Shown one piece after another: positions 23,048-33,403 of a stretch of 33,403 nucleotides of DNA. Source of the DNA: Promethearchaeota archaeon (GTDB taxonomy: Archaea > Asgardarchaeota > Lokiarchaeia > Sigyniarchaeales > SOKP01); the NCBI GenBank assembly GCA_019894975.1, contig JAGXNO010000040.1:1-33403 (forward strand), given 5' to 3'. Under the pieces are notes generated by a model that did no database searches, was not told the origin of the DNA, and saw only the letters and a program-made list of their open reading frames with translations. Each line of letters begins with the position of its first letter. Within the stretch, counting starts at the first letter, position 1. The position numbers and the translations under genes were made by a program.

Positions 23048-24541
23048 TTAATAATTAGGTACTCTCTTATTTTCTTCCAATTTAGCTTTAATATGCTTTT
23101 TGCTATTATTTTTTTTTGAACCAGCAATCCTCTGGAGCAGTGGTAAACCAGGTTTCACTTCTTCTATTGGCTTTGATTCAATCATATTGCTAGCAATCAA
23201 TTCCTCGTAGAGTTCTTTCCCCTTCTTTGTGCGTATGAGAACAGTATTCCAACCTGAAGGAGAACCAATGGAACCAACTGATATATCCGCGGATTCAGAA
23301 GTTAAATCATAACACATTTCACAATCCTCACGACCTAAATGAGAGATTTCCTTGATAGGTATACTTAATTCCTCTCCTTTGTTAGTATAAACAAAGAATT
23401 TACCCTTATTGATATCCATCTTTTTTGCGTCATTTACATCTACGTTTAATTTCTTACAGATTTCTAGGAGAGATTGATATGAAAAAGATTCCATGCAGAA
23501 TATACCTATTCTGTAATCAATGTTATTTAGTGATGGAAATCCAATGTTATATATCTTAGATTTCAAAAGGGCTTGCATTTGGCATGGTACTCCTACAACA
23601 GCTATTTTGGTATCCTTTAATTCATTTTGATTTAATAATTGCAAATTAGGATTATTAACATATTTAGTTCCAGCTGTTGTTAGAATATCTTCCTTATTTT
23701 TAAGTAAAATCGGTTCAGGGCGCCAAAGAGTATTACTCATCTTTGCTCCTAAGGCAAGATCAATCTTTTTCTTATCGAATAGATAATGTAAACAGGTACT
23801 TGAAATCCCTCCATCTTGGCATATTTCTGAAATTTCTTTAACTTTTGACCTCGCAGAATATGCTTCAATGAAGTACCCAATCTTTTCATATTCCTTAACT
23901 TCAGAGCTTTGATCCAAGACCATATTTAATACTCTCACAGGAAGATATGTTCTGGGGCACACAAAATAGCATAGTCCACAACGAATACATTTGTCTTCAT
24001 CGATTTTACCAAATCCGTTATAAATCTGAAGACAATTTACAGGACAAATTCCGGCACAAAGACCGCATCCAGAACAGTTTTTAGAGTCGAAAACAACCTT
24101 TACTGGTTCATAAATAGTTTTTAATCTTGAAATATCTACATCATTAACCGTTATAGAGAGATCTTTAAAGATGAGCATTTCGGGATTATTTTCATCTCCG
24201 TGTATTTTATCGTATAATTCTTCTACATTAACCAGTTTTTCATTTCTTAGTAACTCTAATAAACTTAGAGTTGTATGTAATTCTATTGAGGTGTTTTCAC
24301 AAAATTGATTTAAATTTAGTAAATTACTCTCAGAACTATTTTTTAGAAAATTGAAAAGGGAATATTTTAATTTTTCTTCATCCAACATTTTATATAGGAT
24401 AGTTTCATATTGAGCTTCATCATAAATTCCAGCATCTAAAATATCCTTTTTGGCATCAATTAGAGCTCGAACTCTATATGAATCTAAAGCATCCGCTACA
24501 TTTTTTAAAAATTCCCATGAAAAATTTTCTTCAATACCCAT
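23048..24541 (-). CDS. frhB: FrhB/FdhB-family F420-interacting subunit with an N-terminal helical/wHTH-like extension and 2[4Fe-4S] ferredoxin
   Basis: CSGCGLCAGICP, CIRCGLCYFVCP, QDGG, AGTKY, VVGVPCQ, IGIFCMESF and C..C.D.....ADISVGSIGSP.GW motifs. Confidence 0.88.
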   Translation of the reverse strand: MGIEENFSWEFLKNVADALDSYRVRALIDAKKDILDAGIYDEAQYETILYKMLDEEKLKYSLFNFLKNSSESNLLNLNQFCENTSIELHTTLSLLELLRNEKLVNVEELYDKIHGDENNPEMLIFKDLSITVNDVDISRLKTIYEPVKVVFDSKNCSGCGLCAGICPVNCLQIYNGFGKIDEDKCIRCGLCYFVCPRTYLPVRVLNMVLDQSSEVKEYEKIGYFIEAYSARSKVKEISEICQDGGISSTCLHYLFDKKKIDLALGAKMSNTLWRPEPILLKNKEDILTTAGTKYVNNPNLQLLNQNELKDTKIAVVGVPCQMQALLKSKIYNIGFPSLNNIDYRIGIFCMESFSYQSLLEICKKLNVDVNDAKKMDINKGKFFVYTNKGEELSIPIKEISHLGREDCEMCYDLTSESADISVGSIGSPSGWNTVLIRTKKGKELYEELIASNMIESKPIEEVKPGLPLLQRIAGSKKNNSKKHIKAKLEENKRVPNY

Positions 24542-31728: not shown

Positions 31729-32565
31729 TTAATGATTATTTTGTGATTTTTTGGGAGTTAATTGTATTAATTTACACTGATTGGTAATGAAGTATTTAAA
31801 TAGATGGATGTACCCCTGAAGCTGTTTAGGGTTACCATTTTCTAACCACAAACCAGAAGTATATTCGGGGGCGTCTTTCACTTGATCTAAAGTAGTAAGT
31901 AAGAATTGATTATCAGCAATTAATAATCCAAAGGGTATTATATTATCTCCCTCAATAGAGTGGACGGTAATAGAAACTTTTAGTAATTTCTTAATTTCTT
32001 CCTTTAAATTATCATAATATTTTAATGCAATTACGACTTGAATAGGAGAAGAAAATTTTTTGTTCCAAAGTTCTCGAAGAACCCACTCATAACCACCTAA
32101 TTCTTGCATAAGTAGATCTGGTGTAATAATGAAGAAGATCCGTTCCGTCGCAGTACTTATTAGTTCTTTTATTTTTTTCCTTATTTTTAATCTTGAATTT
32201 ATAGCCCACACACGTGGTTCATTTTCTTCTTTCGTAATTTCCAGGTCACTAATTAGTTTTTCAAGCACTAAGGTGTCTTCAATTTTTTGCTTGTATTCAT
32301 CTCTTATTACGCTAAATATTCTTTCAATTGGTATTACTTGGTAATTTGCCCCTCTCTTAATCGGTTCTTTTTGAATAAAGCCCTTCTCTATTAATCTGTT
32401 TAAAGAATCATAAACTCTGGCTCTATCTACACTTGAATGCTTCGCGATATCAGCGGGACTCAATATTTTGTATTTACACAAAGTTAGCAATACTTTTGAG
32501 TCATTTTTGGTGAAATTTAGCGATTGAAGAGCTACTGCAATTTCAGATTCTTCTAGTTCGTTCAT
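31729..32565 (-). CDS. TrmB-family transcriptional regulator
   Basis: N-terminal wHTH (DIAKHSSVDRARVYDSLNRLIEKGFI) and a C-terminal PLD-like effector domain. Confidence 0.85.
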   Translation of the reverse strand: MNELEESEIAVALQSLNFTKNDSKVLLTLCKYKILSPADIAKHSSVDRARVYDSLNRLIEKGFIQKEPIKRGANYQVIPIERIFSVIRDEYKQKIEDTLVLEKLISDLEITKEENEPRVWAINSRLKIRKKIKELISTATERIFFIITPDLLMQELGGYEWVLRELWNKKFSSPIQVVIALKYYDNLKEEIKKLLKVSITVHSIEGDNIIPFGLLIADNQFLLTTLDQVKDAPEYTSGLWLENGNPKQLQGYIHLFKYFITNQCKLIQLTPKKSQNNH

Positions 32566-32991
32566 TTTTTGTATGTTAATTCTATAATACTAACTTGGTA
32601 GTAAAATTATAATTTCATCTATAATGAAATAGTCTAAAATCTTATATTTTAACTTTCTTTTTTAGATAAAATTTAGAACCTAAAGATCTGAAAAAGAAAA
32701 ATAATATTCAGTGAGATAGACTTTAAACTACATCATTTAAACCTTTAGTATCTGATAAATTAAAATTCCATTAGTTTAGAGGTTAAATCTAGTTAAACTT
32801 TAGGTTTTTAAGATTATGGCTACAATAAAAATTCAACAACGGTTAATAATGGGCTAACTAACTTTCGTTAAGATTTATTGAATTGTTAATAAAAGTGAAA
32901 AAGTGGAAAATTAGGATTCATAGCATTTATTTCCGACAAAACTAAAAAATAATTGTTATTAGAAATTAATATCATATTAATAAAACGATCT

Positions 32992-33019
32992 AATTTTCGA
33001 ACATAACGATTCGAAAATT
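32992..33019. promoter_or_regulatory. perfect 10-bp inverted repeat upstream of the histone promoter
   Basis: AATTTTCGAA-CATAACGA-TTCGAAAATT. Confidence 0.55.
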
Positions 33020-33053
33020 TTCTATAAAGAGATTATCAATTCGAATCATAACA

Positions 33054-33061
33054 TTTATATA
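33054..33061 (+). promoter_or_regulatory. putative TATA box for the histone gene
   Basis: TTTATATA ends about 70 nt upstream of the ATG. A GGAGG RBS lies at 33121-33125. Confidence 0.5.
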
Positions 33062-33132
33062 ATAGAAATGTGTAGTTATAATTAATTACCATCTAAATAA
33101 TAATCCTATAAAATTAAAGTGGAGGAATAAAA

Positions 33133-33403
33133 ATGGCTAAAAAGAAAGCTCCTGCAAAAGCTCCTGCAAAGAAAGGTGATAGTTATATCGCCAAAAAGGT
33201 TTCAAACCTCTTGAAATCTGGGTATGCGCCTATCCGCAGGTTGATGAAAAAGGAAGGGGCTGATCTAGTCGCGGCTGAAGTAAATTAGGTAGTGTCCTAA
33301 TTACGGTTAAAGCGCTAGATAAGCTCATAGGCTTCCTAGAGGGTTCGGCTGCAAAGGCTACCAAGGAAGCAATCAATGTCTGCAAAGCAGATAAGCGTAA
33401 GAG
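33133..33403 (+). CDS. archaeal histone with an N-terminal tail, split into three exons (33133-33195, 33226-33278, 33311->33403); 3'-partial and not in the ORF track
   Basis: Joined exons give MAKKKAPAKAPAKKGDSYIAKAPIRRLMKKEGADLVAAEALDKLIGFLEGSAAKATKEAINVCKADKRK..., matching alpha1-L1-alpha2-L2 of the HMf-type histone fold. Confidence 0.9.
33196..33225 (+). other. putative 30-nt BHB/BHL-type intron 1 (in frame, no stop)
   Basis: Central helix GCCA/GGGU (3 pairs plus A.G), bulges AAA and AUG, and a 9-bp intron stem AGGUUUCAA/UUGAAAUCU. Standard cut positions give IAK|APIRR. Confidence 0.72.
33279..33310 (+). other. putative 32-nt canonical BHB intron 2 (frame-shifting, contains stops)
   Basis: Exon stem AUCUAG(U)CGC/GCGCUAGAU, central helix GGCU/GGUU, bulges GAA and AAA, and intron stem GUA(A)AUUAGG/CCUAAUUAC. 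Standard cut positions give GCU GA|A GCG CUA (AEAL). Confidence 0.88.

What the first reader, a model, noticed from the sequence alone, without database searches (positions are those of the whole stretch)
33178..33234. Second, in-frame 30-nt BHB-like intron in the same histone: possible isoform switch by intron retention
Seen: 10 extra codons (KVSNLLKSGY, 33196-33225) split the alpha1 start YIAK|APIRRLMK. They form a 9-bp hairpin (33197-33205/33211-33219, loop ACCUC) flanked by GCCA+AAA and GGGU+AUG. Cutting after the second base of each triplet removes exactly these 10 codons. The motif is relaxed: it has an A.G mismatch in the central helix, and the exon side pairs only further out (GAUAG/CUAUC), so it is BHL-like. 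Inference: the intron is a multiple of 3 with no stop, so retention would give a histone with a 10-aa longer N-terminal region, whereas retaining intron 2 gives a truncated peptide. Two introns of different strength could allow regulated histone isoforms, loosely like HAC1/XBP1 non-spliceosomal splicing.
Basis: partly seen in the sequence, partly recalled or inferred. Interest (0 to 1): 0.8.

Follow-up and report, generated by a model that had tools for sequence, protein, structure and literature searches.

The report
In-frame tRNA-type mini-intron in histone
Thirty bases that read like ten extra amino acids in a histone gene of a Loki-type Asgard archaeon are most probably a tiny tRNA-style intron cut out of the mRNA; gene finders miss it because it keeps the frame open, but nothing suggests that keeping it serves as a regulated isoform switch.

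Summary
Bases 33196-33225 form a 9-bp hairpin. It is flanked by GCCA+AAA and GGGU+AUG, a relaxed bulge-helix-bulge (BHB).

The motif alone is not significant: about 3 are expected per window, and a second hit in the window proved to be ordinary coding sequence. The comparisons decide it:
- All 29 same-genus orthologues, 5 paralogues and solved archaeal histones read YIAK-APIRR without a gap, which is exactly the predicted splice product.
- A near-identical strain (5 differences in 3041 flanking bases) lacks the insert.
- A related contig keeps the hairpin through 3 compensatory pair changes, while 4 of the 10 "codons" change.
- Five other inserts sit at this junction in relatives. One (32 nt) has the same core and breaks the frame, one (30 nt) carries TAA, and one (31 nt) breaks the frame. 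These genes remain under strong purifying selection.

The host encodes a two-subunit (alpha-beta) splicing endonuclease and RtcB. I had no RNA data, so splicing is inferred.

The intron reading is supported (about 0.8). The isoform-switch idea is not: an open frame is not conserved at this site.

This scan had already noted mini-introns in other genes of this genome and in histones of other Asgard genomes, and one other hidden in-frame intron (acs).

The parts
33133..33195 (+). Histone exon 1 (21 codons): lysine-rich tail MAKKKAPAKAPAKKGDSYIAK.
   Evidence: ORF. It is collinear with the orthologue N-termini.
33178..33182 (+). Distal exon-1 arm GAUAG, which can pair with CUAUC at 33230-33234. 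It is a weak, non-adjacent outer helix.
   Evidence: Read from the sequence. Relatives have the equivalent pairing GGAUA/UAUCC in their MFE folds.
33190..33193 (+). H5', the exon half of the central 4-bp helix (GCCA).
   Evidence: It covaries with H3' across site-A variants: GCCA/GGGU, GCCA/GGGC, GCCA/UGGU, GCAA/UUGC and CGCA/UGCG.
33194..33196 (+). Bulge 1 (AAA). The predicted 5' cut lies between 33195 and 33196.
   Evidence: This is the only register that gives IAK-API.
33196..33225 (+). Intron A: a 30-nt in-frame insert without a stop codon (reads KVSNLLKSGY).
   Evidence: Absent from 29 of 29 genus orthologues, from 5 paralogues and from the near-identical strain L056. A homologous insert in L036 shows 3 compensatory pair changes.
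33197..33219 (+). Intron hairpin h': arms 33197-33205 and 33211-33219 (9 bp), loop ACCUC 33206-33210.
33220..33223 (+). H3', the intron half of the central helix (GGGU). The pairs are G.U, C-G, C-G and an A.G mismatch.
33224..33226 (+). Bulge 2 (AUG). The predicted 3' cut lies between 33225 and 33226.
33226..33278 (+). Histone exon 2 (APIRRLMKKEGADLVAAE: start of helix alpha1 through loop 1).
   Evidence: It aligns with the solved histone HPhA without a gap.
33279..33310 (+). It is a sibling feature of the same gene.
   Evidence: Fold. Removing it gives AAE-ALDKL, as in all orthologues.
33311..33403 (+). Histone exon 3, cut by the contig end. The full gene ends 37 nt further on in L035.

Best explanation
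Bases 33196-33225 are a 30-nt archaeal endonuclease-type (bulge-helix-bulge) mini-intron in the mRNA of a tail-bearing histone. It is the first of two such introns in this 243-nt coding sequence. Proposed mechanism (inferred): the transcript folds so that exon bases GCCA pair with intron bases GGGU, next to a 9-bp intron hairpin. This presents AAA and AUG as two 3-nt bulges four pairs apart. The two-subunit (alpha-beta)2 splicing endonuclease cuts after the second base of each bulge. RtcB then joins ...AUCGCCAAA to GCGCCUAUC..., which restores YIAK-APIRR, and probably circularises the 30-mer. The open reading frame through the intron is incidental; it only hides the intron from gene callers. 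Shown here: the insert, its structure, its absence from orthologues and from a near-identical strain, covariation, frame-breaking sister introns in genes under selection, and the presence of the enzymes. Inferred: that excision actually takes place in this organism.
For: 1. Homology gap. All 29 same-genus orthologues read ...YIAKAPIRRLMKKEGADLVAAEALDKL.... So do about 40 metagenome proteins. The five paralogues in this genome read YISW-SPIRR or FAW-SPVRK without an insert. Solved histone HPhA aligns across the junction without a gap.
2. Cut sites. The only register that restores the orthologue sequence is the one the BHB rule predicts. A motif this good at a fixed site and length has a frequency of 4.85e-5.
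3. RNA conserved, peptide not. Against L036 the exons are 185/192 identical (dN 0.007, dS 0.137), while the insert is 19/30 identical (Fisher p = 7.5e-7). Four of 10 residues are replaced. Yet 3 hairpin pairs changed on both sides (C-G to U-A, A-U to G-C, A-U to C-G), and one G.U in the central helix became G-C. Slid registers show no such changes.
4. Sister introns at the same junction, found by a DNA pattern that does not depend on ORF calls. G099 has 32 nt with the identical core GCCA/GGGU, AAA/AUG, the same A.G mismatch and no adjacent outer helix, and it shifts the frame. G109 has 30 nt with an in-frame TAA and a perfect helix GCCA/UGGU. L048 has 31 nt with GCAA/UUGC. L037/L038 have 30 nt with CGCA/UGCG. 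The central helix covaries with the Ala codon (GCC or GCA).
5. These genes are functional. In G099 and G109 the interrupted gene is the only close orthologue. Every spliced product is a full 76-81 aa histone. dN/dS is about 0.03-0.04.
6. A strain with 5 differences in 3041 flanking bases lacks the insert precisely.
7. Machinery. There are two ~200-aa EndA paralogues. One matches the A. pernix catalytic subunit (E = 1e-34), including the segment around KPR. The other has the catalytic Tyr and His replaced (F, T), as expected of a beta subunit. This is the (alpha-beta)2 type with the L1 loop reported for Asgard (PMC5829648). RtcB is present.
8. The same gene needs splicing in any case, because intron C carries a stop and shifts the frame.
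Against: No junction read, circular intron or cleavage assay exists. The motif is relaxed: an A.G mismatch in the 4-bp helix, one G.U, and no exon helix directly next to bulge 2. The MFE folds prefer competing pairings, namely an exon-1 self-hairpin in this window and CGC/GCG exon-exon pairing in relatives. Because this copy is in frame and has no stop, nothing in this genome alone forces splicing. The motif alone is at chance level in the window.
Confidence: 0.8

Rival explanations
1. Translated indel. The 30 nt are a DNA insertion that is never removed from the RNA, so this strain makes a histone with 10 extra residues between the tail and helix alpha1. The hairpin and the BHB-like flanks are incidental.
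For: The insert is in frame and has no stop. The motif is relaxed and is at chance frequency when judged alone. There is no RNA evidence.
Against: The insert splits a block that has no gap in 29 orthologues, 5 paralogues and solved histones. Its residues are not conserved, while its base pairs are. An insert with the identical core motif breaks the frame in G099, whose gene is the sole orthologue and is under purifying selection. The cut register matches the BHB rule exactly.
Confidence: 0.1
2. Regulated retention. The weak, in-frame intron is spliced only partly, and both the spliced and the 10-aa-longer histone are used, in the manner of HAC1/XBP1.
For: The frame is open. The motif is weaker than that of intron C. 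Two further 30-nt site-A variants, L036 and L037/L038, are also open.
Against: Three of six site-A variants break the frame or carry a stop. The site-B 30-nt insert carries TAG. The insert peptide evolves without constraint: 4 of 10 residues differ, against 1 of 64 in the exons. The open variants were partly found through protein searches, which can only see open ones. A 30-nt AT-rich insert stays open by chance in roughly half of cases (my estimate from base composition).
Confidence: 0.06
3. Artefact or chance: an assembly chimera or a random hairpin with no biological meaning.
For: The MAG contig ends 93 nt after intron C, and the locus is polymorphic between strains.
Against: The same sequence stands in a 67-kb contig listed as a separate ENA record, which may or may not be an independent assembly. 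A diverged homologue of the insert stands in another sample (L036). Five further inserts sit at the same junction in other genomes and samples.
Confidence: 0.02

Closest known systems
BHB intron in the cbf5 pre-mRNA of Crenarchaeota (Watanabe 2002; Yoshinari 2006; Yokobori 2009, PMC2738675, as cited in PMC7714728 and PMC5829648)
   Same: It is an endonuclease-type intron inside an archaeal protein-coding sequence. The host has the hetero-oligomeric (alpha-beta)2 EndA. The intron is present or absent among relatives.
   Different: The gene is a histone and the phylum is Asgard/Promethearchaeota. The intron is a minimal 30-nt hairpin. There are two introns in a 243-nt coding sequence, and at least four intron sites in the orthologue family were verified here at DNA level. 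This copy is in frame and has no stop, so it is invisible to gene callers. For cbf5, splicing has been shown experimentally; here it has not.
Relaxed (HBh' / BHL) tRNA introns at non-canonical positions in TACK and Asgard archaea (Marck and Grosjean 2003; PMC5829648; bioRxiv 10.64898/2026.10.13.758758)
   Same: The geometry is the same: a 3-nt bulge, a 4-bp helix and a 3-nt bulge, with one well-formed side (H-B-h') and one loose side. The size range is the same. The host lineage carries many introns: ARAGORN finds only 16 tRNA genes in this 95%-complete genome, 6 of them with introns.
   Different: The substrate is an mRNA. The exon half of the helix is constrained by codons; synonymous codons next to the intron are biased.
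BHB intron in the 5' UTR of HVO_1309 mRNA, Haloferax volcanii (PMC7714728)
   Same: EndA acts on an mRNA.
   Different: That intron lies in the untranslated leader, not in the coding sequence, and its host has an alpha'2 enzyme.
HAC1 / XBP1 unconventional cytoplasmic splicing (IRE1 plus a tRNA ligase or RtcB)
   Same: It is non-spliceosomal cut-and-join of an mRNA at stem-loops, sealed by an RtcB-type ligase in metazoa. This is a functional analogy only.
   Different: The nuclease is different (IRE1, not EndA). The intron there is a regulated switch that changes the frame. Here there is no evidence of regulation, and the open frame is not conserved.

Membership tests
Archaeal endonuclease-type (BHB) intron, relaxed form | Two 3-nt bulges on opposite strands, separated by a 4-bp helix. 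| tested here: met
   GCCA/GGGU with bulges AAA and AUG. Three of four pairs form and one is an A.G mismatch. The helix covaries across site-A variants and is perfect in G109, L048 and L037/L038.
Archaeal endonuclease-type (BHB) intron, relaxed form | An intron-side helix h' closes bulge 1. | tested here: met
   A 9-bp hairpin is present in both the MFE and the centroid fold. Three compensatory pair changes against L036.
Archaeal endonuclease-type (BHB) intron, relaxed form | Cuts after the second base of each bulge give a product that restores the conserved sequence. | tested here: met
   Only register 0 gives IAK-API, as in 29 of 29 orthologues.
Archaeal endonuclease-type (BHB) intron, relaxed form | The host encodes a splicing endonuclease able to take relaxed motifs, and an RtcB ligase. 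| tested here: met
   There are two EndA paralogues: a catalytic alpha that keeps Y/H/K and the KPR loop segment, and a beta in which Tyr and His are replaced. RtcB scores 562 bits. The link between this enzyme type and relaxed specificity comes from PMC5829648.
Archaeal endonuclease-type (BHB) intron, relaxed form | The insert is excised from the RNA (junction reads, a circular intron, or in vitro cleavage). | not testable with these tools
Strict canonical hBHBh' motif | A fully paired 4-bp helix, plus an exon-exon helix h directly next to bulge 2. | tested here: not met
   There is an A.G mismatch and zero contiguous outer pairs. The exon pairing GAUAG/CUAUC lies 7 nt and 3 nt away from the core. 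Intron C of the same gene does meet this motif.
Regulated intron retention giving two functional isoforms | The open frame and the retained peptide are conserved among homologous introns. | tested here: not met
   Site-A variants of 32 nt, 31 nt and 30 nt with TAA break the frame. In the insert 4 of 10 residues differ between W and L036, against 1 of 64 in the exons.
Archaeal histone (HMf-type, CBFD_NFYB_HMF fold) with an N-terminal tail | The spliced product is collinear with histone-fold proteins. | tested here: met
   The spliced product is an 81-aa protein. Orthologue P0013 matches HPhA, HMfA and HMfB over residues 18-80. The orthologues carry PF00808.

The most novel reading that the evidence does not exclude
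The weak, in-frame intron is spliced only partly, and the cell uses both forms. EndA activity, or RNA folding around the A.G-mismatched helix, would then set the ratio of a normal histone to one whose lysine tail sits 10 residues further from the fold. That would be a primitive alternative-splicing switch on chromatin in a close relative of eukaryotes.
Probability: 0.06. Interest if true: 0.85.

Novelty: new variant of a known kind. Interest (0 to 1): 0.68.

Why it matters
In the papers I could search, endonuclease-type introns inside archaeal coding sequences are documented only for cbf5, plus one 5'-UTR case in Haloferax (PMC7714728).

In this case a 243-nt histone gene of an Asgard archaeon carries two such introns, and one of them is invisible to gene finders because it keeps the frame open. 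That has three consequences:
- Proteomes predicted for these lineages contain spurious insertions as well as truncated genes.
- Counts of mRNA introns that rely on broken frames are too low.
- Intron content differs between strains that are otherwise almost identical, and it differs together with a short recombination patch. This points to ongoing intron turnover at the DNA level in the closest prokaryotic relatives of eukaryotes.

It also gives a natural test substrate, weak against strong motif in one transcript, for the specificity of the Asgard splicing endonuclease.

Tried and rejected
- Motif-only statistics: a genome scan for relaxed BHB motifs (at least 3 of 4 H pairs, at least 7 bp h', L = 24-45) gave 49,043 hits against about 39,600 in shuffled sequence. 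The motif alone is therefore useless as a detector. With L = 30 and at least 9 bp it gave 380 hits.
- The second such hit in the window (24501-24530, minus strand) was tested as a possible further hidden intron and rejected. Orthologues are collinear across it in 15 of 15 genus genomes.
- Mobile repeat family: a short-word BLAST of intron A against the whole genome found no other copy.
- Alternative fold: CGC/GCG exon pairing with a 5-nt/6-nt internal loop (MFE in relatives) predicts neither cut site, so I kept the H-based model.
- A shifted central helix (U33-A7 register) would give a 29-nt excision and a frameshift, so I rejected it.
- Translational bypass of the T4 gene 60 type: there is no matching take-off and landing codon pair, and the 31-nt and 32-nt sister inserts offer no common landing site (read from the sequence). 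Rejected.
- A spliced form of this exact allele does not appear among the protein hits. Those databases are mostly genomic, so this says little.
- Site D (FLE|, P0007/L057) was fetched, but I did not work out its BHB.

Full report
**The locus.** The window is the whole MAG contig G000:C110. A histone gene starts at 33133 on the + strand and is cut by the contig end. The complete gene stands in a 67-kb ENA contig that is identical over the window's last 403 bases (L035). As written, the ORF reads MAKKKAPAKAPAKKGDSYIAK-KVSNLLKSGY-APIRRLMKKEGADLVAAE-VN-stop.

**Check of the observation.**
- A 9-bp hairpin lies at 33197-33205/33211-33219 with loop ACCUC. It appears in both the MFE and the centroid fold.
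- It is flanked by GCCA+AAA (33190-33196) and GGGU+AUG (33220-33226).
- The 4-bp helix pairs as G.U, C-G, C-G and an A.G mismatch. No exon helix lies directly next to it.
- The distal pairing GAUAG/CUAUC (33178-33182/33230-33234) exists.

**Is the motif more than chance?** Judged alone, it is not.
- The fold z-score is only -2.3.
- A motif at least as good at L = 30 occurs 380 times in 7.84 million positions of this genome. That gives about 3 expected per window, and 2 were found.
- I used the second hit (24501-24530, minus strand) as a negative control. It is ordinary coding sequence, collinear in 15 of 15 genus orthologues.
- The structure therefore matters only because of where it sits.

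**Comparative evidence for an insert.**
- All 29 same-genus orthologues that were fetched read ...YIAKAPIRRLMKKEGADLVAAEALDKL... in one open frame of 76-84 aa. Dozens of metagenome proteins read the same.
- The five histone paralogues of this genome read YISW-SPIRR, FAW-SPIRR or FAW-SPVRK, with no insert.
- The solved Pyrococcus histone HPhA aligns across the junction without a gap (GELPIAPVDR against GYIAKAPIRR).
- The 30 nt are thus an insert inside the most conserved N-terminal block of the fold.
- Only one excision register restores the orthologue sequence, and it is the register given by cutting after the second base of each bulge. For a fixed site and length, a motif of this quality has a frequency of 4.85e-5.

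**RNA structure is conserved; the peptide is not.** The closest other copy is L036, from another sample. It has a 30-nt insert at the same junction and also carries intron C.
- Exons are 185/192 identical (dN 0.007, dS 0.137).
- The insert is only 19/30 identical (Fisher p = 7.5e-7), and 4 of its 10 codons are non-synonymous.
- The hairpin nevertheless survives. Three pairs changed on both sides, and one G.U in the central helix became G-C. No such changes appear when the partners are slid by 1-3 columns.
It favours an RNA element.

**Sister introns at the same junction.** I searched with a DNA pattern that needs only the flanking codons and a gap of 24-44 nt, so the search does not depend on ORF calls. 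It covered 135 genomes of the family and the metagenome collection.

| Copy | Insert | Central helix (exon/intron) | Effect on the frame |
|---|---|---|---|
| G099 | 32 nt | GCCA/GGGU; same AAA and AUG bulges, same A.G mismatch, no adjacent outer helix | frameshift |
| G109 | 30 nt | GCCA/UGGU, perfect | in-frame TAA |
| L048 | 31 nt | GCAA/UUGC, perfect | frameshift |
| L037/L049 and L038/L050 | 30 nt | CGCA/UGCG, perfect; cut one base upstream, same product | open |

- The intron half of the helix follows the Ala codon of the exon (GCC or GCA). This is covariation across independent variants.
- In G099 and G109 the interrupted gene is the only close orthologue (90-92% identity; the other matches are 36-52%).
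- Every conceptual splice gives a complete 76-81 aa histone.
- The exons show dN/dS of about 0.03-0.04 against relatives (dS is near saturation, and only 4-14 pairs could be computed per gene).
- These genes are therefore in use, which requires that the insert be removed. G099 shows that this must hold for the very same relaxed core that stands in the window.
- Further inserts in the family sit at RRL|MKK (L042: 30 nt, with a TAG that the gene caller read as Q), at AAE|ALD (intron C here, L036, L038) and at SAAx|ATK (L037, L056).

**A near-identical strain without the intron.** L056 comes from a sister sample.
- It differs from the window organism at 5 of 3041 flanking bases.
- Between site A and site E, 19 of 99 exon bases differ. 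All 19 are synonymous (p = 2e-25).
- Intron content is swapped. The window has introns A and C. L056 has neither, but carries a 31-nt insert at site E.
- This is a short recombination tract that carries introns with it. It shows that intron A is dispensable DNA within a single population.
- Synonymous codons next to site-A introns are also biased compared with intronless genes: ATC in 5/6 against 4/32, GCG in 4/6 against 3/32, GCT in 0/6 against 18/32. The variants are partly related, so these p-values overstate the effect.

**Machinery.**
- The genome has two EndA genes of about 200 aa.
- One aligns with the catalytic subunit of the A. pernix heterotetramer at E = 1e-34. It keeps Tyr/His/Lys and the KPR-containing N-terminal loop segment.
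- The other has Phe and Thr in place of the catalytic Tyr and His, as a structural beta subunit would.
- This is the (alpha-beta)2 type with the L1 loop that PMC5829648 reports for Asgard and links to relaxed substrate specificity.
- RtcB is present.
- ARAGORN finds only 16 tRNA genes in this 95%-complete genome, 6 of them with introns. This fits the heavily interrupted Asgard tRNA genes described in bioRxiv 10.64898/2026.10.13.758758.

**Interpretation.** The insert is best read as an endonuclease-type mini-intron (confidence about 0.8).
- The missing piece is RNA evidence.
- The isoform-switch proposal fails the comparative test. Half of the site-A variants destroy the frame, and the peptide is unconstrained. 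A 30-nt AT-rich insert stays open by chance roughly half the time (my estimate). I leave about 0.06 for functional retention.
- A never-spliced translated indel keeps about 0.1.

**Relation to what is known.**
- PMC7714728 (2020) states that cbf5 is the only reported BHB intron in an archaeal mRNA, and adds one 5'-UTR case.
- My three literature searches found no report of such introns in Asgard protein genes.
- Earlier notes of this scan already list mini-introns in other genes of this genome (cdhC, purA, dnaG and others), in histone genes of other Asgard genomes, and one other hidden in-frame intron in acs.
- This finding is therefore a further instance of a recurring, apparently unpublished phenomenon. 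It adds three points: frame-preserving invisibility, a relaxed core validated by a frame-breaking twin, and strain-level polymorphism through a recombination patch.

Noticed in passing
window 33196-33360 compared with L056:1564-1693: A near-identical strain (5 differences in 3041 flanking bases) differs in a patch of about 130-160 bp within the histone gene. In that patch 19 of 99 exon bases differ, all synonymously. Intron content is swapped: introns A and C here, a 31-nt site-E insert there. This looks like short-tract recombination that moves introns within one population. The MAG contig also breaks about 50 nt after the patch.
   Followed up: partly
window 33279-33310: Intron C (32 nt) is a canonical hBHBh' motif: h CGC/GCG plus GAUCUAG/CUAGAU, H GGCU/GGUU, bulges GAA and AAA. 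In genes that carry intron C, the exon flanks use synonymous codons that form the outer helix (GATCTAG...CTAGAT). In the intronless strain L056 the same flanks read GATTTAG...TTAGAT.
   Followed up: partly
L042:109-138; L037:244-274; L056:1663-1693; L057 around 255-290: The same histone orthologue carries mini-inserts at other sites in metagenome relatives. At RRL|MKK the insert is 30 nt with TAG and a 10-bp hairpin. At SAAx|ATK the inserts are 31 nt with H AGCU/AGCU. An insert probably also sits at FLE|, but I did not work that one out. Several gene calls are truncated or were read with TAG=Q as a result.
   Followed up: partly
window 24501-24530 (minus strand): This is a second 30-nt relaxed BHB-like motif, at the start of a 497-aa ORF (23048-24541). 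It is built from A/T runs. Orthologues are collinear across it, so it is a chance motif in coding sequence.
   Followed up: yes
window 31729-33132: A TrmB-family regulator gene (31729-32565, minus strand) lies head-to-head with the histone across a 567-bp AT-rich spacer with several TTCGAA-centred palindromes. An Arf/Ras-like GTPase gene lies beyond trmB. The same arrangement is seen in L038-L040 and L056. Upstream regions of other histone paralogues (C166, C108, C97) share the leader around the ribosome-binding site.
   Followed up: no
L035:6131-6156 and beyond (about 3 kb downstream of the histone, outside the window): A LigT / 2',5' RNA ligase-family gene lies a few genes downstream of the intron-bearing histone. 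Its position is probably coincidental.
   Followed up: no
whole genome G000: ARAGORN with its intron option finds only 16 tRNA genes, 6 of them with introns of 9-30 nt, in a 3.9-Mb genome that is 95% complete. This suggests that most tRNA genes are too interrupted to be called. A second, partial RtcB-like match (C48:320-1171) also exists.
   Followed up: no
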